Position numbers and translations under genes: made by a program
Source of the DNA: an uncultured Candidatus Saccharibacteria bacterium
GTDB lineage: Bacteria; Patescibacteriota; Dojkabacteria; J137
Direction: 5' to 3'
NCBI GenBank assembly: GCA_964607415.1
Contig: CAZSKK010000001.1
Location: 492,939 to 556,938, forward strand
Length of the DNA stretch: 64,000 nt
Shown: piece by piece, positions 5,543-42,889 of the stretch
How positions within the stretch are numbered: the first letter of the stretch is position 1
Layout: every line of letters begins with the position of its first letter
The notes under the pieces: model-generated
The model's database searches: none
What the model saw: only the letters and a program-made list of their open reading frames with translations
Told to the model about the DNA's origin: nothing

Positions 5543-5657
5543 GTGAATCACACATTCACGACGAATTTACTTTATAAGTTTGAAACCGTTAATCTGCTCA
5601 ACAACATAAAATGTTGTTTCGTGTTTCAGAAAAGGGTGGCTTTGGCCCGGTGAGGAG
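5543..5657 (+). repeat. Copy A of a structured repeat element: palindrome GTGAATCACACATTCAC, a 36-nt spacer, hairpin GCTCAACAACATAAAATGTTGTTTCG, then a GC-rich GGGTGGC..GGCCCGGTGAGG motif abutting the stop codon of 5658..6686.
   Basis: Sequence identity in the palindrome and 26-nt hairpin, and the same 36/37-nt spacing, with copy B at 42274..42439 in the opposite orientation. TACATTCGACAGCAC (5352-5366) is also shared. Confidence 0.55.
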
Positions 5658-6686
5658 CTACCGTTCTCTAAACTTATATGCAGGTAACTTTTGAGAAGAA
5701 ATTGCCACTCTATAAGTATGAAATTTTAATTTCTCATGCGAAATCACAATATCGTAATTTCCGAATGGAATTTGATTTACTGTAGCAAATTTACCATCTG
5801 ATCCGGTTTTGGTTTCATAAACTCTACCTGATTGTAAATTTTTAAAAACAACTTTGACCTCAGGCACTGGCTTATCTTTTTTATCCACAACTATCCCAAA
5901 AAGTATTTGTCCATTCTGACTGATAAGTTCCCCTTTTTCATTTAACGATTCTGCTTCTGAAGACTTAAGTTCTTCTTTCCCGACAGATTTTAATTTTTCA
6001 AAAAGGGAATTTATTTTATTCATAATTTGAGATTCCTTTTTATTAAATTCCGGATCGTCTTTGGCAAGCCTTGAAAGTTCAAATTTCAAATTTTGTATTT
6101 GGCTTTGGTAATTTTCTGATGGAGCTTGTTCTACAGGCTTTTGCATCTGAGTGTGCGCTGATTGAGGTTTAGGAATGGTTTGCTTTTTTGTTTTTTGTAT
6201 ATCGTTCTTAAAAACTTGATCGTAAACCTGATTTAAATTTCCTGACGGCTCAAGAGAATCCCTATCATTTCCTGCTTTTGAATCTGAACCAAAAATCTTA
6301 TCCAATGGAATATCCGAAATATCAACCTTCCCTTGTTTTTGCATCGCAAGCTGCTGCTGGCTTTTTGTAGGAGATGTAATTTGGCTATTTTTAAGAATAT
6401 CTGGAGCTCTACTACTTTTAACCCAAACATATCGTGGAGATATGAATAAAGCTTTTAAATATCCATTCAACCAGGTACCAAAATTTGGAATAATCGCTAA
6501 AAGTAATCCAGTAAAAACACTTACACCCATGAGCGGGAATTTTATTATTACAGGTAATGGCAAAAAGAAAATTAGGAATGCGCCAACACAACCAAAAACG
6601 ATTTTGGCAAACTGTTTTAAAGTAAAACTTCCAAAAAGTTTGAATTCAACTTCTAAAATATTTTGTGGTACTGGATGTTGCTCCAC
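5658..6686 (-). CDS. Membrane protein with N-terminal TM helices, a low-complexity linker and a C-terminal carboxypeptidase-regulatory-like / transthyretin-like beta domain.
   Basis: Hydrophobic N-terminus (FLIFFLPLPVIIKFPLMGVSVFTGLLLAII). C-terminal GIVVDKKDKPVPEVKVVFKNLQSGRVYETKTGSDGKFATVNQIPFGNYDIVISHEKLKF looks like a CarboxypepD_reg-like fold. Confidence 0.5.
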   Translation of the reverse strand: MEQHPVPQNILEVEFKLFGSFTLKQFAKIVFGCVGAFLIFFLPLPVIIKFPLMGVSVFTGLLLAIIPNFGTWLNGYLKALFISPRYVWVKSSRAPDILKNSQITSPTKSQQQLAMQKQGKVDISDIPLDKIFGSDSKAGNDRDSLEPSGNLNQVYDQVFKNDIQKTKKQTIPKPQSAHTQMQKPVEQAPSENYQSQIQNLKFELSRLAKDDPEFNKKESQIMNKINSLFEKLKSVGKEELKSSEAESLNEKGELISQNGQILFGIVVDKKDKPVPEVKVVFKNLQSGRVYETKTGSDGKFATVNQIPFGNYDIVISHEKLKFHTYRVAISSQKLPAYKFRER

Positions 6687-9399: not shown

Positions 9400-9903
9400 T
9401 TAATCACCTTGCAAAGTTGCAACCACATGATCCGCATTGTTTATAGGATTGGGTTTAGCATAAAGACCTATGAGTTTTGCGGAGGCAATAATTTTATCTT
9501 GTATTATCTTTTTTAATTCATCTTTCTTAGAGCCTTCTTTTAAGTTTAAAAAATCATTTAATGCATGTAGTTGAAAAAAATAACGATGAATACCACTAGG
9601 AGGACATGGCCCGTCATAACCAATATTCCCAAAATCATTAATACCTTGAACTGCATTCACAGGAACCTGACCTTCGTTTATAAAAATTTCAGACGGACTT
9701 ATATTCCAAACAAGCCAATGTGTAAAATCTTTGCCTTCCGCGTCTGGGTCTTCAACAATCAATGCTAGGCTATTAGTATTTTCTGGCACATCAGTAATTT
9801 GCAAGGCAGGGCTAACATCATACCCATCGCAGGTATGTTTTGAAGGTATATATCCATTGTTTTTGAAATTAGGACTTTGTAATTTCATAATTTCAAAAGG
9901 CAA
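9400..9903 (-). CDS. YbhB/YbcL family phosphatidylethanolamine-binding (Raf kinase inhibitor-like) protein.
   Basis: KLQSPNFKNNGYIPSKHTCDGYDVSPAL...DPDAEGKDFTHWLVWNISP...GYDGPCPPSGIHRYFFQLHAL is the canonical bacterial PEBP signature. Confidence 0.8.
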   Translation of the reverse strand: MPFEIMKLQSPNFKNNGYIPSKHTCDGYDVSPALQITDVPENTNSLALIVEDPDAEGKDFTHWLVWNISPSEIFINEGQVPVNAVQGINDFGNIGYDGPCPPSGIHRYFFQLHALNDFLNLKEGSKKDELKKIIQDKIIASAKLIGLYAKPNPINNADHVVATLQGD

Positions 9904-10088
9904 AATGCATCTACACTTACAGTATAGTACAGTAAACTTTGACTGTAAAGAAAAAGCTTCGAATACTCTTATCAGAGCAGAATAAAGTTATGATTAAGTA
10001 GGCCTATCCAAATAATTGCGAATTTATAGATTCTTTATCGAACTTGAGTTTTATAAAAACAAGATGGCATTACTTGGAAAAGTGTTGA

Positions 10089-10487
10089 CTAGAATTCTAC
10101 CATGATACCTAACTGTTCCAAGCCAAAGAATATATCTTCCCACGTTGCAAGAAACTTATTTAGTTGAAGCAATTTAGCTATTTGAAGACGATTAAATTCG
10201 TTTGAAAGAAGTGCTTTCTTACTTTCAGTATTAAGATTTCTCAGGGAATCATCCAATCTTTTTAGATATGTATCAACTATTCTTTCCCAGGTTGAGTCTT
10301 CAGGTAGTTGGTAAGCTTCAATACAATCTAGTCTATAGAAGTCCTCCAAAGCCTTCAAATCATCGTTACCTCTAAATAACTCCTGCATTAATAATGGATA
10401 TAAATCGTCATGGCCTGAGGAATCTGAAAGATCAAATCTCTTTGCTAAAGATATTCTTACTTCGTCACATTTTTGAAAATCTAACAT
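10089..10487 (-). CDS. Hypothetical cytoplasmic protein.
   Basis: 132-aa ORF with no recognisable motif. Confidence 0.45.
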   Translation of the reverse strand: MLDFQKCDEVRISLAKRFDLSDSSGHDDLYPLLMQELFRGNDDLKALEDFYRLDCIEAYQLPEDSTWERIVDTYLKRLDDSLRNLNTESKKALLSNEFNRLQIAKLLQLNKFLATWEDIFFGLEQLGIMVEF

Positions 10488-10803
10488 AGTTGAAGTGAAA
10501 TTTTCAGAATTATATCAAATAAGTATGAAATGTATAGAAAATAACTCAAAAATCGGGTAAAATACTTCGTACTTAAAACTTTAGTAGTGTTCGATAATTT
10601 GTCGCAAATGACTTCAACTTCGTTGAAGAGTTTGCAAAAACTTGCAATTTTAGACGTCATGCTGAATTTATTTCAGCATCTGTCTAAAATACAGATTGTT
10701 CATTAAAACATAAATGGTATTATTAGTTTAGTTGAAATTAGAATCACAGATAAACTCAGCCATGGGCTGAGTAATTTCAAAAAAACAATAATATTGTTTT
10801 TTT

Positions 10804-23138: not shown

Positions 23139-23171
23139 GTGCTTACGTAAATCCTGCCCTCGATGAATACA

Positions 23172-23285
23172 CCCCTCCTTGCTCCTCCCCAGTTTTGGGG
23201 AGGAGACCTAGTGGAGGGAATATATTAAAACTAAGCTACTCTCAAATTAATCTCCCCGCCTATGCAGGAGGGGATAAAGGGGAGG
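23172..23285. repeat. Two GC-rich imperfect palindromic elements (23172-23219 and 23252-23285) between asnB and the DUF559 gene.
   Basis: cccctccttgctcctcccc agtt ttggggaggagacctagtggaggg, and tctccccgcctatgcaggaggggataaaggggagg. They are strongly GC-rich against an AT-rich background. Confidence 0.55.
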
Positions 23286-23301
23286 TAAGTAAAGGTAAGT
23301 T

Positions 23302-23667
23302 ATGCAAGTAAATAATCCATACAACAAAAAACTAGTCCATTACTCAAAAGACTTGCGCGCTAATGCAACACCAGGCGAAAGACTACTATGGAAGTTTATA
23401 AACAAAAATCAACAAGGAGTTAAGTTTCGAAGGCAGCACCCACTTCTTAATTATATTGTAGATTTTTACTGTATAAAACTTAGACTTGCCATTGAAATTG
23501 ATGGCAGTAGCCACGATGAAGCTAAGTATTTATATGACAAGCGAAGACAAGTAGAGCTTGAATCTGTTGGCGTTACATTCCTACGCTTCACTGAGCATGA
23601 AACACGTTACAATATCGAAAGTGTATTGCAGACTATTGAGCTGAAAGTATGTGAATTACAGATTTAA
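23302..23667 (+). CDS. DUF559 / Vsr-like endonuclease-domain protein.
   Basis: ERLLWKFI...FRRQHPLLNYIVDFYCIKLRLAIEIDGSSHDE...VGVTFLRFTEHE fits the DUF559 restriction-endonuclease-like fold signature. Confidence 0.7.
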   Translation: MQVNNPYNKKLVHYSKDLRANATPGERLLWKFINKNQQGVKFRRQHPLLNYIVDFYCIKLRLAIEIDGSSHDEAKYLYDKRRQVELESVGVTFLRFTEHETRYNIESVLQTIELKVCELQI

Positions 23668-24311
23668 ATTTCTTGGAACAATGGCATTTGCTCTCCCTTT
23701 TCAATTGTTCTTAAAGATTTTTTTACATACCATTCCCCTTCCCAAAAAGCTACTTTTACATCACTTCCTTCATCTATTTGCCCAGTGTAAACACCTTCCT
23801 CATCAAGCGAAAACTGTATGAAATTGTTCCCATGATAAATACCAACTGGAACTTCTACACCTTCAACAGCTCCAATAGATAGTAGGCCTAACTCGGTTTG
23901 AATATTAAGATAGACTTGTGGATTTTCAGTTTCTGGAACAAATGAAAGAGAAAAAAATTTCTCTTTTGAGATTTGAGAAATATATGCATTTTGTCCTAGT
24001 TCGAAAAAATGCCTATCCTTGCCTATTTTTAGAAATTCTGGAGTGCCATGATTGTCAAAATAAATTTCTCCAAAGCCTGTTTCGGTATGTAGCATCTCAT
24101 AAAGCTCTACTTTTTCATTATACTTACTTGCTATATATATTATAGGCCCCTCATTAGTGGTGATAAATCTTCCAGAATCGTAAGGCTGAAAATAAAAATG
24201 CTTCCCATTACAAGTATTTAATGTATTTGGATTTTCCCATTCATCAAGAAGCAAACTCCCTACATTTTTAATCTCAATAATTTCATCAACTTCATCGACC
24301 TTTTGATACAT
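23664..24311 (-). CDS. Hypothetical protein.
   Basis: 215-aa ORF. 4-nt overlap with the convergent DUF559 gene. Confidence 0.5.
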   Translation of the reverse strand: MYQKVDEVDEIIEIKNVGSLLLDEWENPNTLNTCNGKHFYFQPYDSGRFITTNEGPIIYIASKYNEKVELYEMLHTETGFGEIYFDNHGTPEFLKIGKDRHFFELGQNAYISQISKEKFFSLSFVPETENPQVYLNIQTELGLLSIGAVEGVEVPVGIYHGNNFIQFSLDEEGVYTGQIDEGSDVKVAFWEGEWYVKKSLRTIEKGEQMPLFQEI

Positions 24312-24614
24312 ATGTCTTACTTAAAATATACAATCTATAGTATCTGGACCATGCCTTGAACACTATATGTTGCGTTTATACTAAACCTTTCTGTTTTTAA
24401 TTTCAATAGTTTTTATATAAATTGCTGCGTGAAACTGGAAACAAGCGTGAAACGTCTATTGATTGGTACTTTTATATAGTATGTAATAAATATAGCAAGA
24501 ATCTATTTGGGATATATAAGAAGCAACCAGCACATAGCAGATAGCTTATAGTAATGTTTCTACTTGCTAACCGCTATGAGCTATTTGCTGACTGTTATAT
24601 GCTAAAATAGCACC

Positions 24615-25850
24615 ATGACTCCAAAAGACAGAACAATTGATACAGGAATACTAGGTCTACCCTACCCCGTAATTGGACTTGCACCTATTGATGGTGTTTC
24701 TGATGCTGCTTTTAGAAGAATTACAAAGAAATATGGAAATCCTGATTTGATTTTTACTGAATTTACGCATGTAATGGGCTTATGTTTTGCTGCGGAAAAT
24801 ATACTAAATACTTTTGATTATGAAGAAATGGAAAGACCAATAGTGGCACAAATTTTTGGGAAAGACCCAGAGTATTTTTATCACGCTGCAAAAGTGATTT
24901 GTGCATTAGGATTTGATGGCGTTGATATAAATATGGGCTGCCCCGCGCATAGTGTTTCTAGTAAAGGTGCTGGCGCTGGTCTTATAAAAACTCCAGATTT
25001 AGCAAGAGAAATTATTTTTCAAACTAAACTTGGAGTGAGTGATTGGGTTAAAGATGGAAAGCTTACAGGATTGAGGCCCAAAGCACAAAGAGCGATTGAA
25101 AAAATGGCAGAAAGGAACCAATTAAGAGTTACCACCCCCATCCCCTCTTTTTCTCCCCCAGATCTGGGGGAGAAGCCGAAGGCAGAGGGGGTGGGGGTGA
25201 CTAACCTGCTCGCTCGCGACTCGAAGCTGGTAGCTCGTAGCTCAATCCCGGTTTCGGTCAAAACGCGTATCGGTTACGATGAACCTGTTACTAAAAGCTG
25301 GATTAAAAATCTTGAAAAAGGAAACCCTCAGTGGATTACAGTTCATGGACGAACTTTAAAACAGATGTATACAGGAAATTCAGACTGGAACCAAATTAAA
25401 ATTGCAGTAGAAACCACAGATATACCTGTTATGGCAAACGGTGATGTTAAAGAACACGCAGATATACAAAAGATTTTAGATGCAACAGGAGCTAAAGGGA
25501 CGTTAGTTGCAAGAGGTGCGTTTGGTAACCCGTGGATTTTTGCCTCACCCCCTGCCCCTCTCCTTCAGGAGAGGGTGGCAAGCGCAAGCGAGCCGGGTGA
25601 GGTGTTAGCTGTTCTTCTAGAACACGCCAAACTTTTTGACGAACTGAATAACTACTCCGAAAAAGCATTTGTGCAAATGCGAAAACATTTTGCATGGTAC
25701 ATTAATACAATTACCAAAATGCAAGGAACAAATAACAATAATGTTAAGTTTTTCTTAAAAATGAAGGATTTAAAGACGAAATTGATGCAGGTGAGTAGCT
25801 CAAAACAGGTGGAGCGAGAGGTAGAAAGCTTTAGAGCAGTAGAGCGTTAG
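24615..25850 (+). CDS. tRNA-dihydrouridine synthase (Dus family) carrying two in-frame GC-rich insertions.
   Basis: Dus motifs NMGCP, KTRIG, HGRT and GNPWIF are present. The insertions are TTPIPSFSPPDLGEKPKAEGVGVTNLLARDSKLVARSS and ASPPAPLLQERVASASEPGEVLAV. Confidence 0.8.
   Translation: MTPKDRTIDTGILGLPYPVIGLAPIDGVSDAAFRRITKKYGNPDLIFTEFTHVMGLCFAAENILNTFDYEEMERPIVAQIFGKDPEYFYHAAKVICALGFDGVDINMGCPAHSVSSKGAGAGLIKTPDLAREIIFQTKLGVSDWVKDGKLTGLRPKAQRAIEKMAERNQLRVTTPIPSFSPPDLGEKPKAEGVGVTNLLARDSKLVARSSIPVSVKTRIGYDEPVTKSWIKNLEKGNPQWITVHGRTLKQMYTGNSDWNQIKIAVETTDIPVMANGDVKEHADIQKILDATGAKGTLVARGAFGNPWIFASPPAPLLQERVASASEPGEVLAVLLEHAKLFDELNNYSEKAFVQMRKHFAWYINTITKMQGTNNNNVKFFLKMKDLKTKLMQVSSSKQVEREVESFRAVER
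25131..25258. repeat. GC-rich imperfect palindromic element inserted in frame in dus (palindromic core 25133-25199).
   Basis: cacccccatcccctctttttctccccca gatc tgggggagaagccgaaggcagagggggtgggggtg. No stop codons in the gene frame. Confidence 0.55.
25543..25604. repeat. Second GC-rich palindromic element inserted in frame in dus.
   Basis: cctcacccc ctgcccctctcc ttca ggagagggtggcaagcgcaagcgagccgggtgagg. It shares the GGGTGGC..GCCGGGTGAGG motif with the elements at 5634-5657 and 42417-42439. Confidence 0.5.
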
Positions 25851-27508: not shown

Positions 27509-28687
27509 TTAAATCATTAATATTCCTCGCATTATTGCTAAAGCCTGATCTTTATCTTCTCCAAATCTATTTCTTACACCTTCCACTTCATCATAGGTCT
27601 TTTCAAGCCAAGATTGTTGGTCTGTAGGGCCCATTTCGCTAAATGATCGATAATTACTTCCAGCCAATTCTAATAAGCTAGCTTTATTTCTAATTCTTTG
27701 CATAACTCCTCGATGAATTCTATTTCCATCCCTCTCATCTAAGCCTCCACCTGTTTGTGGACGCGCTCTCTCTCCATCAGCTGCTTGTTTTCTTGCTCTT
27801 AAATAATCCTGTTCAGCACCAGGTCCAAATACACTAACTTCTCTAGGTGGCACCGGGCCAGTTTCAGGATCACCAAGTTCAGGAATACCATAAGAGCGAT
27901 AGTCTGGTACCGTATGTATCTGGACGGTAGGATTATTTACAGCTGTTTCAGCTACTTGCGATGGCGGAGTATAATTACGAGTATTACCAGCTGCATCTGT
28001 ATATTGTGTAACAGTATACCCTGCTCTTCCTTCCAGTCCTGAATAAGGGCCGTAATAATCTCCGTCTGGACCTGTAGCATTTACATAAGTATCTGAGGAC
28101 AAAACTATACCAGGTAAAGTTTGATTTGACTGGTTAGTGTTTTCAGGTGTTTCAGCGTTAGCAGGACTCTCACCTTGCGAACTTAAATCGTTAGGCGGAG
28201 ATTCTTCTTCGATTAAATCAGGAGTTGGCATAAAATCACCTTTTTCTCCTTGTGGGTTTAGCTTATCTATTAGTGCCGGTTTTGAAGTATCCTCAATTAC
28301 AGTGGATGTTTTCTCCTCACTTTTAGTTCTTTTTGGGTGGTTTTCACTAATTTGTTTTTCAGCATCTTCCGGACTCACACCATGTTTTATAAGATCATTA
28401 AATTCTTCAAAAGCGGCTTGTCCGTAAGCTTGTCCTATTCTTTCAGCTGTATTGAAATATTCTGGTATTGCTGTCCCATTGGGTTGGCTGACATCTTCTC
28501 CAGGTTCTTCACTAGCTGATGCAGGTGGCTGCGATTGGGCAAATACTGCTTCTCCCTTACTAACATCACCAAACTCTGCACCTTCACTATTACGATTTGA
28601 TTTTAATGGTGGTGCAGGCGGTTCTTTATACCCAAGTACCGCTGGGAGACCTGCAGGTACAGGTTTAGGAATAAACTGTTCCGGCAA
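27509..28687 (-). CDS. Pro-rich hypothetical protein, most likely the frameshifted C-terminal continuation of the giant protein 28603..33546.
   Basis: The track start is TTG. The same frame stays open upstream to an in-frame TGA (plus strand tca at 28781-28783) and reads plausibly there (RKNCNIYDKVQQARAKRAFDDYDDALKNGTELPEQ). The giant ORF's last ~45 aa look like out-of-frame junk. Confidence 0.45.
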   Translation of the reverse strand: MPEQFIPKPVPAGLPAVLGYKEPPAPPLKSNRNSEGAEFGDVSKGEAVFAQSQPPASASEEPGEDVSQPNGTAIPEYFNTAERIGQAYGQAAFEEFNDLIKHGVSPEDAEKQISENHPKRTKSEEKTSTVIEDTSKPALIDKLNPQGEKGDFMPTPDLIEEESPPNDLSSQGESPANAETPENTNQSNQTLPGIVLSSDTYVNATGPDGDYYGPYSGLEGRAGYTVTQYTDAAGNTRNYTPPSQVAETAVNNPTVQIHTVPDYRSYGIPELGDPETGPVPPREVSVFGPGAEQDYLRARKQAADGERARPQTGGGLDERDGNRIHRGVMQRIRNKASLLELAGSNYRSFSEMGPTDQQSWLEKTYDEVEGVRNRFGEDKDQALAIMRGILMI

Positions 28688-31600
28688 TTCAGTACCATTC
28701 TTAAGTGCATCATCGTAATCATCAAAAGCCCGCTTTGCTCTTGCTTGCTGAACCTTATCATATATGTTACAGTTCTTCCTTCACCACTTATACTGGCAGG
28801 AGTTTGTCTTGCAGTTTGTGGCGGTAGTGCTTGCAGGTCAGCCACTGGAGGTGGAACTAGTTGGTTAATTATATTAGATGGGTTATTTACAATATTTATA
28901 GCCCTATCAAGTATTTGATTAATTTTTTCTGAATCTGTTGTAGGTATAATGTCAAAATCTCCATTATTGTATTCTATTTGAACAAAATCCTTGTCTCTTT
29001 TTACACTAGTAGGTAATTTAGGTTGGCCAATTATATTTTGTGGTGGCTGATCTGCTGTTCGTTTCACAGGTTTATAAGCAACGCCATTTCCCGTTACACG
29101 ATAAGCTCCATCAGGTATACGCTGACCAGCTTCAAGCATATAAATTTTTCTTACCTCTCCAGGGTATTGATAAAATATTTGCTCACCATTTTCATCATAA
29201 GCATCTTGTCTTAATGGAGGCCTAACTTTGTCATCACCTGCTCCCATTCCACCCCCTACTGGATGCGCTCCATCAGGTAAGGGATTATTGCTATTCCACA
29301 AAGTTTGTTGGCCATTAGGATATTGAATTGTAATGTACGGAGCTCCTTGTTCAACTGTAAAATTACTTGGTCCTTGTGTCTGTCTCAATGGTGGATTACC
29401 TACTGTTGCCTGATTGCCTGCTGTAGTCTGTGGAGGTACATACTGTCCACCAGGCGCAGGAACTTGATTAACTCCTGGTGGGAGTGGAATATTAGCAGGC
29501 CATGGTGCAACAGGACCTCCTGGCGCCTGATAGTAAATATAAGGTACAGGATTATTTGGCATTGCCTGAGGCGGAATACCAGTTGCCGGTTGTCCTCCTG
29601 GAGCTTGTGCTCCAGCTAATGGCTGTGGATTAAGATTTGCCTGACCATATAACGGCTGTAAAGCATTTACTAAATTAATTGCAGCATTTGGATCAGGAGC
29701 CTGAATTAACAATCCTCCACCAGGTGTAATTTGTACAACTACCCCTTGTGCAGGTGCAGGATTAGCTGCTGGATTTCCTGCCGCTACTCCGCCCCCAGCT
29801 CCTGGTTGTTGCTGTGCAATAATATTCAACATCTGCTGCATAATACCAGCCATTCCATTCATTGCGTCTGCAATTGGTGTTAAATCAACATTATTTGTTA
29901 TCTGGAAAGCTCCAGGCTGAATATTCATTTCATTATTAAAAGAATCAGTATTAGTATTATTACCGAAATTACTCATTGGCTGTGGTGGAACCACAACTGG
30001 TGCTGCCGCATTTCCTAAGCCACCCCCACCTGCTGCATTTGCATTAGCTGGTGGTTGTTGAGGAGGCTGTTGTTGCTGTTGCAGATTTTGCGGCGGAATA
30101 TTAGGTGGATTATTATTGCCTCGACCTCTACCAGTCCTGAAAATAGTTCTAGTTGCCAATGCCCCTAAAGCTCCTAAACCAATCAATGATAAACCTAGCA
30201 CGGCTGCTGCTTTAGTCAAATCTACATCACGCATTCTCTTCAAAAAATCATTTTCAGTAATCTCAACTAAAGCACCACCTTGATTATCAAAATACATTCC
30301 ATTAACCATTACAAGCTCCCCATCTTTAAATGCTCTAGACATGTATATTCCATTATTAGGATCTAATGGAACTCCATTTCCTCCGTAAATAATAGCTCCA
30401 TTTACACCGTCGTCAGAGTTTTCAGCCCAGTATAAAACTTGATCTCCATAGTTAACTTGTTGCCAATTTGTTTCATAGCCGGAAGCTTGAAGAGCCGCAA
30501 TAATTGCTGGATCATTGTGATGATCCCAAGGCATTATTGTTACAGTTATAGGCGCTCCACCAACTACCGGTGTATATGTAACTTCTACTGCTGGCATAAT
30601 TGGTGTACCTCCAGCTCCTATCAATCCTCCACCTGGTGTTATTACTCCTGCTCCCGCCGCTGGAACTCCAGGTAGTGCACCTGGTCCAACTACTCCTGGT
30701 GTTGCTGTAGCTGCATTTAATTTACCAACAGCTCCATCCCAAAAAGGATCCACATTTGTAGTTCCTGGATAATAATTTATAGCCATTGGACCTTCAGTGC
30801 CTGTGATTACACCGGTTTTGAAATCATTAACTAATGTATCTAATTTTGTTGTATCTGGAATAGCGCTCGTTCCTACACCACCTGTAAAATACTTCCCTGC
30901 ATTTACATCTGCATAAGTAGGACCAGCGGGATCTTGCCCTTGAACTATTCTCCTTGCTATATCTAGAGCTATTGCTTCCTTATCCGTTGGAGTCATCGAT
31001 GCGAACGCTGCTGAATCAAGCCCATAATCTTCAGGTCTAACTCCACCGTTCAAATCCGCTAGTACGTGTTGTGCAATAAAAACAGCTGTTTGGCGTTCAT
31101 TTTCAAAACTAGATCCTGCACCGGTAATCCAACTTACAACTGCTGGGCTTGTAGTACCATATCCACTACTTACTACTCCCGGTGCTGCTGCACCTGGGGC
31201 AGCTGGTGCTCCTACTGCTGGTCCGCCTACAAATCCTGGTGGCAAAGCACCTGCACTTGTTGGAGGCATCGTTATTGGTAGCCCAGCTGTACTAATTCCT
31301 CCTGGAGGAGCTAATACTAAACCTGAGGGTAATCCTGTAGGAAGTGGCATTCCTGCTGGACCGTAGTTTGGTATAGATCCATCAGCTGAATAAATCAAAT
31401 TTCCTACTATTGGTGTTCCTGCTACTGGCGCCGGGGCACCTGCGGGGATGCTTATATCAATAATGTACTGTACTTGCAATACGTCGTTGGCACCTGGCCC
31501 ATTTCTAAAAACTATATATTCTAAACCGGGGTCTGTGTCCATATTAGCCGCGAAAACCTGGTCGCCTCCGGGGATTACACCCAAACCTTCATGCCTCAAA

Positions 31601-33546
31601 GGTCCAAACCCTGCGGCAATAACTCCTCCTCCGGCTCCTTGAAGAGGTATCAATTGAGGACTTGGAGAGCGTTGATCTATAAATCCTAAAATGTGCCCAT
31701 CCCCATCCATAACTATTTCCATTGGAACATTTTGACCATCCGCAAAAACATTTATGTCTCCAAAGTGGGAGCCTTCCCTCACAACTTCCATTGGCGCTAT
31801 ACCATTATTAATTATCAAGTGCTCTTCAATTACGCCAGATCTTACATGTCCTCTCGGTATGCCCCACTTTAAAGGATCGTCAATTGGAACTGGGCCTCTT
31901 GGTGGTCCCTTTTCGAAAGGTTTTAAGTTTTCTAACTTTTCATCAAGTAAGTTTCCCTTCTCTCCTATTTCAACAGGGCTCTTAGTTGTTTCCTCAAAAC
32001 CCATAAATTCACCTGCTTTACCTCCTTTCCCTGGAGTTGGTAAACCAGGTCTACCTTTCGCTTGTGGTAAAAATTGTTCAAGTTGGTTTGGTTCATTATT
32101 ACTTCCCAAAGTAGTCTCAAGATTTTGCCTTACACCTCTAATTGAAAATTTGTCAAGAAAATCGTTTCCAACTAATTGAAATTGAACCAATAATGCCAAC
32201 GATCTCATTGCAGAAACATTTCTAGAAAAGTCTTTTTGAATATTTTCTATTTCTTTATTTTCATACCCTAATGCCTTTAGCCCTCTTGCGCCAACCATTC
32301 TAAACATTAAAACAGGTGCAAATGTTGATAAACTTCTTCTAACTGTCCAAGCCATTGCTCTATCTGCCATTCGAGATTTCATTACATCCAAGCCAAGCTT
32401 ATTTGCAAGGCTACCAGCTAAAATTCCACTCCCTTCACTAAAATATGTTCCTGGGAATAATAAAAATGCTGTAGCGGGCAAACTTAATACTGTAGAAGTA
32501 AAAAACTCTTTAAATGACCTATTACCATCTATTGCCCATTCCTTAACTCCTCCCAGCAAACGTTGAATTGGTAATCTTCCCCAATTTAACATTCTAGATA
32601 AATCTACAAATGCATTTTGTCCTGCAAGCTCCATTCCTTTTTGCGCACCTTTTTCCATAAACTTTGACATTTGAATTCCACCTCCGATCATTGCTGCGGC
32701 AGTTAACCCCAGCTCAATACCTTCACCAAGTGTTCTAATAGCATTCCTAGGAGACAAAACAATATTTTTAAATGTGCCAGCTAATCCCTCTCCTAAACCG
32801 GTGCTCTTTAGTATTTGTTTTCTTACAAGCTCAGATTCATCATTATCAATATTTAAATCTATTGCTTGCTTTTCTTTATTAAGTCTAATTTTAACTATAC
32901 CTTGTTCATTATTATCTTCTCTTTCAATATTAAGTTTTTCTCCCCATTTATAGTTTCCTTTTGTATATAAACCCATATATTTACGAATTCCAAGAATATC
33001 TTTAGTTGGATCTTCGTAAATACCAAAGTTCTCCATAAACTGCTTTTGCCTATTTAAAGCATTTATTAATGGAATGTTTTTTTGAATATTTCTGGGAAGT
33101 GATTCTATAGCTCTTCTAAAGCCACTCTTAGTCTGTTCTTCCTTTTCAAATTCATCCGCTAAAATTTCTGCAGCCACCCTCTCTTTAGTTTTTTCAGAAT
33201 CTTCAATTGTATATTCCTGGTATTCTAACTCCTTTGCATAATCACCGTTTCTTCTTCTGGTTAAAGCCAATTTGTCACCTTTTTTCAACAGCACAAAGTT
33301 TTGATCCTTTGCTTTTTTAACTAAAGCATCTACTTCTTCAGCAGTAAGATCGCCTATTTCAACTACTTTATTTTCTTTTTTTGCGAATCTATTTTTGGGA
33401 AGAATATCAGATACTTCTAAAAGTATCTGCCCTGCTTTTTGCTCAGAAGTTAGCATTGCCTCATTTTCCGGGGAGATTCCAGTATCAAGATTATCTGTAA
33501 TATCTATTGCTCCAGAAATTATTTGGTTTGGATCAGCATTACTCAT
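28603..33546 (-). CDS. Giant (1647 aa) surface or membrane-associated protein. It has a ~350-aa N-terminal domain, Gly-rich hydrophobic helices, a central globular region, one TM-like segment and a long Pro/Gln/Ala/Gly low-complexity tail.
   Basis: A single long ORF. Hydrophobic segments include GIELGLTAAAMIGGGIQM, FTSTVLSLPATAFLLFPGTYF and LGLSLIGLGALGALA. The DNA is locally GC-enriched from Pro/Gly/Ala codons. Overlaps the upstream gene by 8 nt. Confidence 0.6.
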   Translation of the reverse strand: MSNADPNQIISGAIDITDNLDTGISPENEAMLTSEQKAGQILLEVSDILPKNRFAKKENKVVEIGDLTAEEVDALVKKAKDQNFVLLKKGDKLALTRRRNGDYAKELEYQEYTIEDSEKTKERVAAEILADEFEKEEQTKSGFRRAIESLPRNIQKNIPLINALNRQKQFMENFGIYEDPTKDILGIRKYMGLYTKGNYKWGEKLNIEREDNNEQGIVKIRLNKEKQAIDLNIDNDESELVRKQILKSTGLGEGLAGTFKNIVLSPRNAIRTLGEGIELGLTAAAMIGGGIQMSKFMEKGAQKGMELAGQNAFVDLSRMLNWGRLPIQRLLGGVKEWAIDGNRSFKEFFTSTVLSLPATAFLLFPGTYFSEGSGILAGSLANKLGLDVMKSRMADRAMAWTVRRSLSTFAPVLMFRMVGARGLKALGYENKEIENIQKDFSRNVSAMRSLALLVQFQLVGNDFLDKFSIRGVRQNLETTLGSNNEPNQLEQFLPQAKGRPGLPTPGKGGKAGEFMGFEETTKSPVEIGEKGNLLDEKLENLKPFEKGPPRGPVPIDDPLKWGIPRGHVRSGVIEEHLIINNGIAPMEVVREGSHFGDINVFADGQNVPMEIVMDGDGHILGFIDQRSPSPQLIPLQGAGGGVIAAGFGPLRHEGLGVIPGGDQVFAANMDTDPGLEYIVFRNGPGANDVLQVQYIIDISIPAGAPAPVAGTPIVGNLIYSADGSIPNYGPAGMPLPTGLPSGLVLAPPGGISTAGLPITMPPTSAGALPPGFVGGPAVGAPAAPGAAAPGVVSSGYGTTSPAVVSWITGAGSSFENERQTAVFIAQHVLADLNGGVRPEDYGLDSAAFASMTPTDKEAIALDIARRIVQGQDPAGPTYADVNAGKYFTGGVGTSAIPDTTKLDTLVNDFKTGVITGTEGPMAINYYPGTTNVDPFWDGAVGKLNAATATPGVVGPGALPGVPAAGAGVITPGGGLIGAGGTPIMPAVEVTYTPVVGGAPITVTIMPWDHHNDPAIIAALQASGYETNWQQVNYGDQVLYWAENSDDGVNGAIIYGGNGVPLDPNNGIYMSRAFKDGELVMVNGMYFDNQGGALVEITENDFLKRMRDVDLTKAAAVLGLSLIGLGALGALATRTIFRTGRGRGNNNPPNIPPQNLQQQQQPPQQPPANANAAGGGGLGNAAAPVVVPPQPMSNFGNNTNTDSFNNEMNIQPGAFQITNNVDLTPIADAMNGMAGIMQQMLNIIAQQQPGAGGGVAAGNPAANPAPAQGVVVQITPGGGLLIQAPDPNAAINLVNALQPLYGQANLNPQPLAGAQAPGGQPATGIPPQAMPNNPVPYIYYQAPGGPVAPWPANIPLPPGVNQVPAPGGQYVPPQTTAGNQATVGNPPLRQTQGPSNFTVEQGAPYITIQYPNGQQTLWNSNNPLPDGAHPVGGGMGAGDDKVRPPLRQDAYDENGEQIFYQYPGEVRKIYMLEAGQRIPDGAYRVTGNGVAYKPVKRTADQPPQNIIGQPKLPTSVKRDKDFVQIEYNNGDFDIIPTTDSEKINQILDRAINIVNNPSNIINQLVPPPVADLQALPPQTARQTPASISGEGRTVTYMIRFSKQEQSGLLMITMMHLRMVLNCRNSLFLNLYLQVSQRYLGIKNRLHHH

Positions 33547-42273: not shown

Positions 42274-42439
42274 CTGAGATCGAAACAACATTTTATGTTG
42301 TTGAGCAAACTAACACTATTAGGTCTTAAAACCATTTCTCACTGTGAATGTATGATTCACTGTTCGTGCTGTCGAATGTAGCTAATTTTATTCTCGACAG
42401 GATAATATCCTGTCTCGGGGTGACCGTGGGCCGGTGAGG
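42274..42439 (-). repeat. Copy B of the structured repeat element: a GC-rich motif abutting the stop codon, then TACATTCGACAGCAC, palindrome GTGAATCATACATTCAC, a 37-nt spacer and hairpin GCTCAACAACATAAAATGTTGTTTCG. Possible ncRNA or 3' UTR structure.
   Basis: Matches copy A (5543-5657) in all three sub-elements and in spacing. There is an additional hairpin gagacaggatattatcctgtc. Confidence 0.5.
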
Positions 42440-42889
42440 CTACTTTTGCCACTGGCATTTATTACTAGCACTACATCCACATTTATATCCCGCTTGTGTT
42501 GGTGTATCTTGTGCTGGTGCCAAGCAAATAGATGACATTAATTCTTCGTTAATTCCTTGGCAAATTTCCATGTTACATCCAGATACAATACAATCAGAAT
42601 CTGCATTACAAGATGAAAACGTTGAGCTTCCATAATAATCAGTGTTTTCACCCGAATCTAAATTATCTTGCTCCTCTTGGGTCAATTGTCTTATGAAAGT
42701 TGTTCCATCTGGTGTTTTGCACTGCTCTGGATAAGTTTCTAAAATTGGATTTCCAGCTTCCACACATTCCTCATATGAATTTATTTCTTCGTTATCATCT
42801 TTAATCAGAACATATGAAATTACACCTGCAACGCTTGCAATAATAAAAAACAGTATCGCAAAGGTTACTACTAATGTTTTATTTTTCAT
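42440..42889 (-). CDS. Small secreted Cys-rich protein.
   Basis: Signal peptide. About 10 Cys in the mature part (SSTFSSCNADSDCIVSGCNMEICQG...CGCSASNKCQWQK). Confidence 0.5.
   Translation of the reverse strand: MKNKTLVVTFAILFFIIASVAGVISYVLIKDDNEEINSYEECVEAGNPILETYPEQCKTPDGTTFIRQLTQEEQDNLDSGENTDYYGSSTFSSCNADSDCIVSGCNMEICQGINEELMSSICLAPAQDTPTQAGYKCGCSASNKCQWQK

What the first reader, a model, noticed from the sequence alone, without database searches (positions are those of the whole stretch)
23150..25610. GC-rich imperfect palindromic elements, two of them inserted in frame inside the dus gene, plus two next to a DUF559 endonuclease gene
In an AT-rich genome, four 35-130-bp elements made of C-runs and G-runs form long imperfect hairpins (for example cacccccatcccctct...gatc...agagggggtgggggtg). 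Two lie between asnB and the DUF559 gene. Two lie inside the tRNA-dihydrouridine synthase ORF, where they keep the reading frame open. They add ~45 aa (TTPIPSFSPPDLGEKPKAEGVGVTNLLARDSKLVARSS) and ~22 aa (ASPPAPLLQERVASASEPGEVLAV) at positions that are short loops in ordinary Dus proteins. This behaviour matches Rickettsia palindromic elements, which are selfish repeats that insert in frame into protein genes. They also share the GGGTGGC..GCCGGGTGAGG submotif with the stop-codon-adjacent motifs at 5634-5657 and 42417-42439. The track ORFs 25019..25261 and 25492..25695 on the opposite strand are artefacts of these palindromes.
Basis: partly seen in the sequence, partly recalled or inferred. Interest (0 to 1): 0.6.

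Follow-up and report, generated by a model that had tools for sequence, protein, structure and literature searches.

The report
GC hairpin repeats tied to DUF559 nuclease
Four GC-rich hairpin repeats in an AT-rich candidate-phylum bacterium, two of them read through in frame inside a tRNA-modification gene, belong to a widespread and apparently undescribed repeat family that flanks small DUF559 (Vsr-like) endonuclease genes in many bacterial phyla and behaves like selfish DNA.

Summary
In a 33%-GC Dojkabacteria-like (CPR) window there are exactly four strong C-run/G-run hairpins. E1 and E2 lie just upstream of a DUF559 gene. E3 and E4 lie in frame inside dus. The region is base-identical in five independent assemblies.

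- E3 accounts for about 23 aa, not 45.
- E4 adds no net length compared with ordinary Dus linkers.
- The elements were not shown to be Rickettsia palindromic elements.

The main new result is a link to the neighbouring nuclease gene. Each element is a 'tag + hairpin' unit (CACCCC-N-hairpin, or hairpin-N-GGGGTG), or an inverted pair of such units. The same architecture flanks DUF559 genes in 78 of 87 loci from many phyla, a 41-fold local enrichment. Hairpin type follows the DUF559 protein clade, not the host. Solo copies are scattered elsewhere, some inside genes. Whole DUF559 units sit in frame inside dus, miaA and tsaD. A 49%-identical relative sits in an intein.

Best reading: a nuclease-plus-target-repeat selfish system. 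It looks like REPIN/RAYT in architecture and like a homing endonuclease in enzyme. The mobility mechanism is inferred, not shown. I found no published description.

The parts
23169..23218 (+). E1: a 'tag then hairpin' unit. Tag ACACCCCT, a 5-nt spacer, a perfect 10-bp hairpin CTCCTCCCCA/TGGGGAGGAG, and an outer CCCTCC/GGAGGG pairing.
   Evidence: I16; z -4.0. It has the same tag-N-hairpin layout as the units found just after the stop codon of DUF559 genes.
23251..23286 (+). E2: a 'hairpin then tag' unit. Hairpin TCCCCGCCT-atgc-AGGAGGGGA with one G-A mismatch, then taa, then AGGGGAGG. It ends 16 nt before the DUF559 ATG. With E1 it forms an inverted doublet directly upstream of the nuclease gene.
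   Evidence: The fold alone is weak (z -1.5). Its reverse complement shares 21 nt (CCTCCCCTTTATCCCCTCCTG) with the element downstream of the 65%-identical DUF559 gene in L007.
23302..23667 (+). DUF559 (Vsr-like / EDxHD-type PD-(D/E)XK) endonuclease gene, 121 aa. The conserved motifs YIVDF and IEIDGSSHD are intact. It is the proposed cognate nuclease of the repeats.
   Evidence: Pfam PF04480, E 7.5e-31. PDB 3hrl, E 3.7e-25. Invariant residues. The family has 20,879 representatives of 50%-identity clusters.
24615..25850 (+). dus (tRNA-dihydrouridine synthase), 411 aa, the host gene of E3 and E4. All columns that are invariant across the orthologue alignment are kept.
   Evidence: Pfam PF01207, E 2e-61. 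PDB matches. Orthologue alignment. AlphaFold pTM 0.87.
25133..25199 (+). E3: an inverted doublet in frame in dus (aa 173-195, TTPIPSFSPPDLGEKPKAEGVGV). Outer 16-bp stem (tags CACCCCC / GGGGGTG), inner hairpin TTCTCCCCCAGA/TCTGGGGGAGAA, and a small GCC-gaa-GGC hairpin.
   Evidence: I2, I4; z -5.4. L002 has a different element of the same architecture at this site. pLDDT is below 50 at aa 177-190. It is open in almost all six frames.
25542..25603 (+). E4: a single-hairpin composite in frame in dus (aa 310-330, ASPPAPLLQERVASASEPGEV). Tag CCTCACCC, main hairpin CCCTCTCC-ttca-GGAGAGGG, small GGC..GCC segment, tag GGGTGAGG.
   Evidence: (z -3.9). The same hairpin plus tag lies upstream of the DUF559 gene in L091. 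Its 3' two-thirds match a motif found in 120 or more metagenome contigs. pLDDT is below 50 at aa 313-325.
5634..5655 (+). Partial E4-like unit (small hairpin plus tag, GGGTGGCTTTGGCCCGGTGAGG) without the main hairpin. It lies immediately 3' of the stop codon of the minus-strand gene 5658..6686.
   Evidence: exact pattern match, 0 expected. It does not fold significantly on its own (z -1.0). Whether it belongs to the family is tentative.
42417..42439 (+). Partial E4-like unit (GGGGTGACCGTGGGCCGGTGAGG, one G short of the pattern). It lies immediately 3' of the stop codon of the minus-strand gene 42440..42889.
   Evidence: No significant fold (z +0.3). Membership is tentative.
25019..25261 (-). 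Antisense ORF (80 aa) across E3. Probably spurious, because the stop-free palindrome keeps it open.
   Evidence: It lies wholly inside the well-supported dus gene.
25492..25695 (-). Antisense ORF (67 aa) across E4. Probably spurious for the same reason.

Best explanation
E1-E4 belong to a widespread family of GC-rich 'tagged hairpin' repeats. These repeats are the partner sequences of small DUF559 (Vsr-fold, EDxHD-type) endonuclease genes. Together they form a selfish nuclease-plus-repeat system.

Anatomy:
- The basic unit is a pseudopalindrome of 14-24 bp (C-run, short loop, G-run) with a short conserved tag on one side: CACCCC(T) 3-5 nt before it, or its complement (A)GGGGTG after it.
- Two units in inverted orientation form a doublet with the tags facing outwards. 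E1+E2, E3 and, with a shared hairpin, E4 are doublets.
- Nuclease genes sit next to or between doublets.

Proposed mechanism (inferred, not shown): the homodimeric nuclease recognises the pseudopalindrome, probably together with its tag, and nicks or cuts there. Repair from another copy then (a) copies the nuclease ORF next to existing repeats, (b) swaps one repeat variant for another at the same site, and (c) seeds new repeats, mostly close to the gene.

In a gene-dense, AT-rich CPR genome, copies that land in genes survive only under two conditions. Their length must keep the reading frame. They must also sit in disordered loops. Because the repeats are nearly free of stop codons in all six frames, this happens fairly easily. 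The two tolerant loops of dus, 1.5-1.9 kb from the DUF559 gene, therefore each carry one.

Status of the steps:
- Shown: the repeat architecture, its association and co-variation with DUF559, the optional and in-frame state in dus, turnover at the E3 site, and in-frame whole units in other genes.
- Inferred: that the nuclease acts on the repeats, and that spread is by break repair.
For: 1. Association. Perfect C-run/G-run hairpins occur at 2.33 per kb within -250 to +200 nt of DUF559 genes, against 0.057 per kb elsewhere in 1.34 Mb of loci. 78 of 87 loci have at least one. Density falls with distance: 2.3, 0.28, 0.059, 0.033 and 0.026 per kb.
2. Fixed layout. The upstream unit is hairpin + (T)TAGGGGTG(T/G)G. 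Downstream, right after the stop codon, comes CACCCCT-N3-hairpin. Several DUF559 C-termini read into the C-rich arm.
3. Co-variation. Hairpin type follows the DUF559 protein clade rather than the host. Within Flavobacteriaceae, 1-identity is 0.235 for the same type against 0.399 for different types. Across host groups it is 0.406 against 0.459. None of 2000 permutations reached either difference.
4. Solo copies. In a given locus, dispersed solo copies are of the same type as the copies flanking its DUF559 gene. 46 of 76 carry a tag and 11 of 76 lie deep inside ORFs. L008 shows the DUF559 ORF between complete ~165-nt doublets.
5. Close relatives. The Dojkabacteria locus L091 has the same asnB-DUF559-dus synteny, and its DUF559 is preceded by the E4 hairpin plus tag. 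In L001 the dus site that holds E4 here holds a hairpin cluster followed by a whole DUF559 ORF in frame.
6. Whole units in other genes. Whole hairpin-flanked DUF559 units also lie in frame inside miaA (L250, DNA checked) and tsaD (peptides only).
7. Mobility and turnover. Dus orthologues are polymorphic at the same two sites. E3 is replaced in L002, and its 5' flank is also divergent (13 of 31), like a conversion tract. In L089 a ~96-nt identical segment with a repeat sits in two different genes, in the same frame.
8. Enzyme. A 49%-identical DUF559 sits in an intein that ends in VHNC. The Vsr-fold EDxHD family includes the homing endonuclease I-Bth0305I, a homodimer with a pseudopalindromic target (PMC3239194; PMC9403480). 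Repeated segments that carry a transposase and a DUF559 gene are recombination hotspots in Legionella (PMC12308824).
9. Tolerance. The E3 and E4 peptides are the low-confidence loops of an otherwise confident Dus model. The elements are open in nearly all six frames.
Against: - No cleavage, binding or mobility data exist. The nuclease-repeat link rests on position and co-variation only.
- Solo doublets have their tags facing outwards, while the units around an ORF have tags facing the ORF. Solos are therefore not simple internal-deletion derivatives, and the layout does not fit classical homing into the middle of a target site.
- No empty-versus-filled pair close enough to define exact ends or target-site duplications was found.
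- In this window, no two of the four elements are near-identical, and only 64 kb of the genome could be searched, so copy number in this genome is unknown.
- E4 is of a different subtype from the repeats next to this window's DUF559 gene (E1/E2). Its own nuclease, if any, is not in the window.
- Only 5 of 120 metagenome contigs with the E4-type motif carry a detectable DUF559 gene. Many of these contigs are only 1-3 kb long.
- The permutation tests do not correct for shared ancestry.
- E2 does not fold better than shuffled sequence.
Confidence: 0.6

Rival explanations
1. REPIN/RAYT-style transposition rather than break repair. The DUF559 protein, or another enzyme, recognises the hairpins as folded single-stranded DNA at the replication fork. 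It excises and reinserts doublets, as Y1 transposases are thought to do with REPs. The nuclease gene itself would be largely immobile and vertically kept.
For: - The architecture closely parallels REP/REPIN/RAYT: a tag plus an imperfect palindrome, inverted doublets, clusters of doublets around the gene, many solo copies per gene, and co-variation of gene and repeat.
- Stems co-vary in sequence while staying paired. The small hairpin has 20 distinct arms, with a mean of 4.1 pairs against 3.1 when shuffled. This suggests that a folded hairpin matters.
- asnB-DUF559 synteny is kept between distant Dojkabacteria.
Against: - DUF559 has a PD-(D/E)XK fold, not an HUH fold. No transposase activity is known for this clade, and its characterised relatives are a mismatch nickase and homing endonucleases.
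- Whole DUF559 ORFs are themselves found at new places inside dus, miaA, tsaD and an intein, so the gene does move.
- The divergent flank beside E3, and the AT-rich flanks shared by the two L089 copies, look more like conversion tracts than cut-and-paste.
Confidence: 0.2
2. The repeats are independent miniature elements of the RPE/MITE type, with no functional tie to DUF559. DUF559 genes merely tend to land in or beside such palindromes, or they use them as expression or stability signals.
For: - Most E4-type copies in metagenomes have no DUF559 gene nearby.
- The four elements in the window differ from one another.
- The G-rich tag of E2 could double as a ribosome-binding site.
Against: - The local enrichment is 41-fold.
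- The orientation relative to the gene is fixed.
- Hairpin type follows the protein clade across phyla and within one host family. Passive co-location does not easily explain this.
- No transposase gene was seen among the called genes of the loci inspected, apart from one IS1595 gene in L089. Loci were not screened systematically for transposases.
Confidence: 0.12
3. The elements serve the host. They could be terminators, mRNA stabilisers or regulatory hairpins for E1/E2, and selected Pro/Gly-rich linkers of Dus for E3/E4.
For: - E1 lies just after asnB and E2 just before the DUF559 gene.
- Hairpins after stop codons (5634, 42417) are placed like 3' stabilisers.
- E4 is well conserved between the window and L002 (3 of 63 differences).
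Against: - No T-tract follows E1, E3 or E4 in the sense direction. A terminator inside dus would be harmful.
- Orthologues lack the segments or carry unrelated ones.
- The peptides are predicted to be disordered.
- The same sequences occur in unrelated genes and phyla.
Confidence: 0.05
4. Artefact: assembly chimera or contamination from a GC-rich genome.
For: The GC-rich segments stand out sharply from the AT-rich background, and E4 resembles repeats of GC-rich soil bacteria.
Against: - The 2.8-kb region is identical in five assemblies from different sequencing runs.
- The reading frame is kept.
- A diverged relative (L002) has E4 at the same place.
Confidence: 0.01

Closest known systems
REP / REPIN elements and their RAYT (REP-associated tyrosine transposase) genes
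   Same: Both have a short imperfect palindrome with a conserved tag at one end. Both form inverted doublets, cluster around a small enzyme gene, have many solo copies per gene, and show co-variation between gene clade and repeat type.
   Different: The associated gene here is a PD-(D/E)XK / Vsr-fold DUF559 nuclease, not an HUH Y1 transposase. The tag is CACCCC/GGGGTG rather than GTAG or CGTC. Copies here also sit in frame inside genes. The nuclease ORF itself turns up at new sites.
Rickettsia palindromic elements (RPEs)
   Same: Both are palindromic repeats that insert in frame into protein genes of a small genome, at positions the protein tolerates.
   Different: As far as I know, no RPE-associated enzyme has been identified. 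Host (CPR versus Rickettsia) and composition differ. No sequence relationship could be tested here. The elements here are shorter (about 35-70 nt).
EDxHD / Vsr-like homing endonucleases (I-Bth0305I; DUF559 domains in inteins)
   Same: The nuclease fold and motif are the same. The prototype is a homodimer with a pseudopalindromic target. A 49%-identical relative sits in an intein. The ORF shows presence/absence at a conserved site of a housekeeping gene (dus site b: repeat only in the window, repeat plus ORF in L001).
   Different: No intron or intein surrounds the ORF here. When it is inside a gene, it and its flanking repeats are simply translated as part of the host protein. The gene is accompanied by dispersed repeats, which classical homing endonuclease genes lack.
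GC clusters of yeast mitochondrial DNA (and double-hairpin elements of Allomyces mtDNA)
   Same: Both are short, optional, GC-rich palindromic clusters in a very AT-rich genome. Both are sometimes in frame inside a protein gene (var1) and are linked with recombination and endonuclease ORFs (from my own knowledge).
   Different: Those are organellar and of unrelated sequence, with no DUF559 nuclease. The comparison is by analogy only.
MITEs (for example Correia elements, Nezha)
   Same: Both are small non-coding elements with terminal inverted repeats and multiple copies. The L008 doublet is a typical ~165-nt MITE-like unit.
   Different: No transposase-bearing parent insertion sequence is evident, and no target-site duplication could be defined.

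Membership tests
Rickettsia palindromic elements | Sequence similarity to an RPE consensus (RPE-1 to RPE-8); Rickettsia or a close relative as host | not testable with these tools
   No RPE consensus was available in the tools. Rfam gave no hit. The host is Dojkabacteria-like.
Rickettsia palindromic elements | In-frame insertion into protein genes at tolerated surface positions | tested here: met
   E3 and E4 keep dus open. Orthologues lack or vary these segments. They are the low-pLDDT loops of the model.
Rickettsia palindromic elements | Many similar copies dispersed in one genome | tested here: inconclusive
   Only 64 kb of this genome was available, and its four copies are not alike. In the relative L089, one element occurs in two genes.
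REP / REPIN-RAYT | Imperfect palindrome with a conserved short tag at one end | tested here: met
   The hairpin plus (T)TAGGGGTG layout, and its complement, recur in loci from many phyla. The tag differs from GTAG and CGTC.
REP / REPIN-RAYT | Inverted doublets (REPINs) clustered around the enzyme gene | tested here: met
   E1+E2, E3 and E4 in the window. Doublets on both sides of the ORF in L008. Distance decay.
REP / REPIN-RAYT | The associated gene is an HUH Y1 transposase (RAYT) | tested here: not met
   The flanked gene is PF04480 DUF559, which has a Vsr-like fold.
REP / REPIN-RAYT | Extragenic location | tested here: not met
   E3 and E4 are inside dus. Other copies lie inside ORFs.
EDxHD / Vsr-like homing endonucleases | Vsr-like nuclease domain with conserved E..D..HD residues | tested here: met
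   PF04480, E 7.5e-31. 3hrl, E 3.7e-25. IEIDGSSHD is invariant. DUF559 is grouped with Vsr and I-Bth0305I in PMC3424549.
EDxHD / Vsr-like homing endonucleases | ORF embedded in a self-splicing intron or intein | tested here: not met
   The gene is free-standing in the window. In L001 and L250 it is read through in frame with no intein ends and no Rfam intron. The relative P0333 does sit in an intein.
EDxHD / Vsr-like homing endonucleases | Cuts the ORF-less allele and is copied in by repair | not testable with these tools
   This needs biochemistry or crosses. Indirect hints only: repeat only versus repeat plus ORF at dus site b, and conversion-like tracts.
MITE | Terminal inverted repeats with a target-site duplication and a related transposase-bearing insertion sequence | tested here: inconclusive
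   Inverted ends are present. No empty site was found to define a duplication. No parent insertion sequence was seen.
Intrinsic terminator | GC-rich hairpin followed by a T-run | tested here: not met
   The scan finds none at E1, E3 or E4. The only site in this area is a 6-bp stem on the minus strand within E2.

The most novel reading that the evidence does not exclude
DUF559 is one of the commonest 'unknown function' nuclease domains in bacteria (more than 20,000 clusters at 50% identity). On this reading it is the enzyme of a pan-bacterial selfish system that keeps and spreads its own tagged pseudopalindromic target repeats. That would make it a second class of nuclease-plus-repeat replicator, independent of HUH enzymes, alongside REPIN/RAYT. 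It can also invade essential genes without any intron or intein, because both the repeats and the ORF are tolerated as in-frame loop insertions. Eroded copies could be one source of the lineage-specific insertions seen in CPR proteins.
Probability: 0.4. Interest if true: 0.85.

Novelty: new variant of a known kind. Interest (0 to 1): 0.7.

Why it matters
- It would give a concrete, testable role to DUF559, a very large family of small nucleases with no assigned function.
- It would explain a class of GC-rich hairpin repeats seen from CPR bacteria to Flavobacteria, cyanobacteria and soil bacteria. These repeats currently mislead gene callers, producing false N-terminal extensions, fused ORFs and antisense ORFs.
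- It shows a way for selfish DNA to enter essential genes without splicing.
- It offers a mechanism for the variable loop insertions typical of CPR proteins.
- If the nuclease-repeat specificity is real, the many co-varying pairs form a natural library of pseudopalindrome-specific nucleases.

Tried and rejected
- Rfam, E-value mode on the region and gathering mode on six loci: no family. The only hit was a chance miRNA match at E = 0.58.
- Terminator scan: no T-tailed hairpins at the elements.
- Intron or intein explanation for E3/E4: rejected. They are 62-67 nt, in frame and without splice motifs.
- Assembly chimera: rejected.
It therefore gave cross-phylum context but not this genome's copy number.
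- Six-frame peptide query of E3 and E4 against 5.8 billion proteins: only the Dus protein itself passed. A single 23-aa copy scores too low, so this was uninformative.
- Viral contigs: only distant DUF559 relatives (43% identity or less), so the subfamily is not obviously phage-borne.
- Literature searches on DUF559, COG2852, Vsr-like plus palindrome, REPIN/RAYT, CPR plus palindromic plus in-frame, and the repeat sequences themselves: no description of this association. The library is incomplete, so absence is not proof.
- The idea that solo doublets are internal-deletion derivatives of a hairpin-ORF-hairpin unit: rejected on tag orientation.

Full report
**1. What is in the window**

The window is AT-rich, about 33% GC. 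Homologue names place it in or near Candidatus Dojkabacteria, a CPR lineage.

A GC-island scan and a relaxed hairpin scan agree. Only four strong C-run/G-run hairpins exist in the 64 kb, all between 23.17 and 25.60 kb.
- E1 (23169-23218) and E2 (23251-23286) lie between the asnB stop and the ATG of a 121-aa DUF559 gene (23302-23667; PF04480, E 7.5e-31).
- E3 (25133-25199) and E4 (25542-25603) lie inside dus (24615-25850; PF01207, E 2e-61) and keep it open.

E1, E3 and E4 fold far better than shuffled sequence (z -4.0, -5.4, -3.9). E2 does not (z -1.5). The 2.8-kb region is base-identical in five assemblies from different sequencing runs, so it is not a chimera.

**2. How the elements sit in Dus**

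Compared with solved Dus structures, the window protein has about 70 extra residues at site a (aa 142-211). At site b it has no gap: aa 310-333 align to the normal barrel-helical linker.

In an alignment of 27 orthologues, mostly unnamed but with Dojkabacteria names where given (340-570 aa), the flanking parts of the site-a segment (the GKLTGL motif, a helix and a G-x-x-N-L motif) are conserved across the aligned orthologues. The stretches that match E3 and E4 are hypervariable. Some orthologues have nothing there. Others have different Pro/Gly-rich peptides such as PLEGGLGRV or SPPSPL. The DNA of six such orthologues shows that these peptides are encoded by GC-rich hairpin elements.

E3 therefore accounts for about 23 aa, not 45. 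E4 adds no net length compared with ordinary Dus, and only about 8 aa compared with the shortest relatives.

An AlphaFold model is confident overall (pTM 0.87). Apart from the N-terminus, the only stretches with pLDDT below 50 are aa 113-117, 177-190 (E3) and 313-325 (E4). E3 and E4 have almost no stop codons in any of the six frames. This explains both the in-frame tolerance and the two spurious antisense ORFs.

**3. Turnover**

A dus gene from another sample (L002) is about 91% identical outside the E3 region.
- E4 is conserved there (3 of 63 differences, two of them in the loop).
- The E3 core is replaced by a different sequence with the same architecture: an outer GCCACCCCC/GGGGGTGGC stem and two inner hairpins. 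It differs at 35 of 70 positions and is 3 nt shorter.
- The 31 nt on the 5' side are also unusually divergent, 13 of 31.

In L089, a ~96-nt identical segment that carries a repeat lies in dus and in an unrelated 1129-aa gene. Orientation and frame are the same in both.

**4. The link to DUF559**

In L001, the dus site that holds E4 here holds a hairpin cluster with a 12-bp outer stem. A complete DUF559 ORF follows it directly, in frame and without a stop codon, giving a 570-aa chimeric Dus.

A second DUF559 paralogue (P0123, 67% identical) is listed on a contig of the same length (584,792 bp) as the one that carries this window's genes. It and a 65%-identical gene in L007 are also flanked by such hairpins. 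The reverse complement of E2 shares 21 nt with the L007 downstream element.

L091 is a distant Dojkabacteria locus with the same asnB-DUF559-dus order. Its DUF559 is preceded by CCCCTCTCC-ttcca-GGAGAGGG-cta-GGGTGAGGTG, which is the E4 hairpin and tag. It is followed by the mirror unit.

**5. Generality**

A scan of one genome per species with a DUF559 alignment returned 80 loci. They come from Flavobacteriaceae and other Bacteroidota, Cyanobacteria, Balneolales, Calditrichota, a Saccharibacteria genome and others.
- Nearly all show the same layout. Upstream of the ATG by 20-180 nt lies hairpin + (T)TAGGGGTG(T/G)G. Right after the stop codon lies CACCCCT-N3-hairpin.
- Perfect hairpins of this kind are 41 times denser within -250 to +200 nt of the gene than elsewhere in 1.34 Mb. 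78 of 87 loci have at least one.
- Density decays with distance. This fits the window, where all four copies lie within 2 kb of the DUF559 gene.
- Dispersed solo copies match the type that flanks the local gene. Some lie deep inside ORFs.
- In L008 the ORF sits between complete ~165-nt inverted doublets with their tags facing outwards. E1+E2, E3 and E4 have this same doublet form.
- Hairpin subtype follows the DUF559 protein tree rather than the host taxon, both within Flavobacteriaceae and across host groups. No permutation out of 2000 reached the observed difference. These tests do not correct for shared ancestry.

**6. The E4 subtype**

Nearly all carry the full motif: CCCTCTCC-loop-GGAGAGGGTGGC-(small hairpin)-GCCGGGTGAGGG.

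The small hairpin varies in sequence while staying paired. Five contigs have a DUF559 gene beside the motif, and in three of them (L098, L137, L172) the motif lies 57-94 nt from the gene. The rest are solo copies, although many contigs are short.

The motifs at 5634 and 42417 in the window look like truncated 3' parts of this subtype.

**7. The enzyme**

The DUF559 profile matches the 'endonuclease-like protein' 3hrl. A published survey groups DUF559 with Vsr and with the homing endonuclease I-Bth0305I.

I-Bth0305I is the prototype of the EDxHD family. It is a homodimer whose highest specificity is for a 14-bp pseudopalindrome (PMC3239194).

The family is very large: 20,879 representatives of 50%-identity clusters. 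Among close relatives:
- One, 49% identical, lies in an intein that ends in VHNC inside a DNA methylase.
- Others lie in frame in the middle of MiaA (L250, DNA checked) and TsaD. Peptides encoded by hairpin-plus-tag units flank them.

Published work also notes DUF559 in cyanobacterial inteins (PMC9403480). It also notes repeated segments carrying a transposase and a DUF559 gene as recombination hotspots in Legionella (PMC12308824).

**8. Interpretation**

The best-supported reading is a selfish nuclease-plus-repeat system. DUF559 most likely recognises the pseudopalindrome, probably with its tag. Breaks there would drive the copying of ORFs and repeats by repair.

Three observations fit break repair: the replacement at the E3 site, the divergent or shared flanks, and the clustering near the gene. 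The resemblance to REPIN/RAYT is architectural, and a transposition-like route cannot be excluded. No activity has been shown.

Tag orientation argues against the idea that solo doublets are simple deletion derivatives of ORF-bearing units. Terminator, regulatory-only, host-linker and artefact readings are weakly supported or refuted.

**9. Novelty**

Nothing in Rfam or in the searchable literature describes these repeats or their tie to DUF559. The library is incomplete, so I rate this as a new variant of a known kind: tagged palindromic repeats with a cognate enzyme, and in-frame palindromic insertions. I do not rate it as categorically new.

Noticed in passing
window 5634-5655 and 42417-42439: Two 22-23-nt GC-rich motifs resemble the 3' part of E4 (small hairpin plus GGTGAGG tag). 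Each lies directly after the stop codon of a minus-strand gene (5658..6686, which has PrgI and CarboxypepD_reg domains, and 42440..42889, with no Pfam hit). They lack the main hairpin and do not fold significantly. They may be eroded copies.
   Followed up: partly
window 25201-25250: The stretch just 3' of E3 (CTAACCTGCTCGCTCGCGACTCGAAGCTGGTAGCTCGTAGCTCA, encoding NLLARDSKLVARSS) is also GC-enriched for this genome. It is conserved in L002 (7 of 60 differences over 25201-25260). It is neither a C-run/G-run hairpin nor clearly host sequence. Its origin is unexplained.
   Followed up: partly
window 24522-24589: An AT-rich inverted repeat lies 26 nt upstream of the dus ATG. The arms are 33 nt at 73% complementarity, with a 16-nt core at 88%. 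It could be a regulatory site.
   Followed up: no
window about 28000-32000: A 4-kb block has raised GC content (0.40-0.46) with many short GC-rich islands on the minus strand. It appears to encode large Pro/Ala/Gly-rich proteins. It does not look like the hairpin repeats.
   Followed up: no
L001 6913-8625; L250 3001-4224; protein P0321: Whole DUF559 ORFs with their flanking hairpin units are translated in frame inside three tRNA-modification enzymes: Dus, MiaA and TsaD. This gives chimeric proteins of 570, 407 and 515 aa. In L001 a GTG just after a GGGGGA run could also allow separate translation of the nuclease.
   Followed up: partly
L089 11216-11310 and 14360-14455: A ~96-nt identical segment, consisting of a repeat plus AT-rich flanks, is present in dus and in a 1129-aa hypothetical gene. 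Frame and orientation are the same (peptide NEELKIGDQASPLPSPVGDGDSYVEMLGD). An IS1595 transposase gene lies next to dus in this locus.
   Followed up: partly
protein P0333: A DUF559 domain 49% identical to the window's sits inside an intein (C-terminal VHNC) that interrupts a DNA methyltransferase (extein GSGTT...).
   Followed up: partly
L054 about 9900-10000 and 10480-10580: Two tandem DUF559 genes each have their upstream hairpin split by the same ~50-nt AT-rich insert (GTCCCCTTCAGG-attattgaaatgaaaatatattttcatt...-AGGGGTG). This suggests nested insertion into the repeat.
   Followed up: no
proteins P0124, P0126-P0128, P0355 and many DUF559 entries of 160-190 aa: Database DUF559 proteins often carry false N- or C-terminal extensions (for example ...TPQSPLKRGG and ...LSPVGRGSG). 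Gene callers read through the stop-free flanking repeats to produce them.
   Followed up: partly
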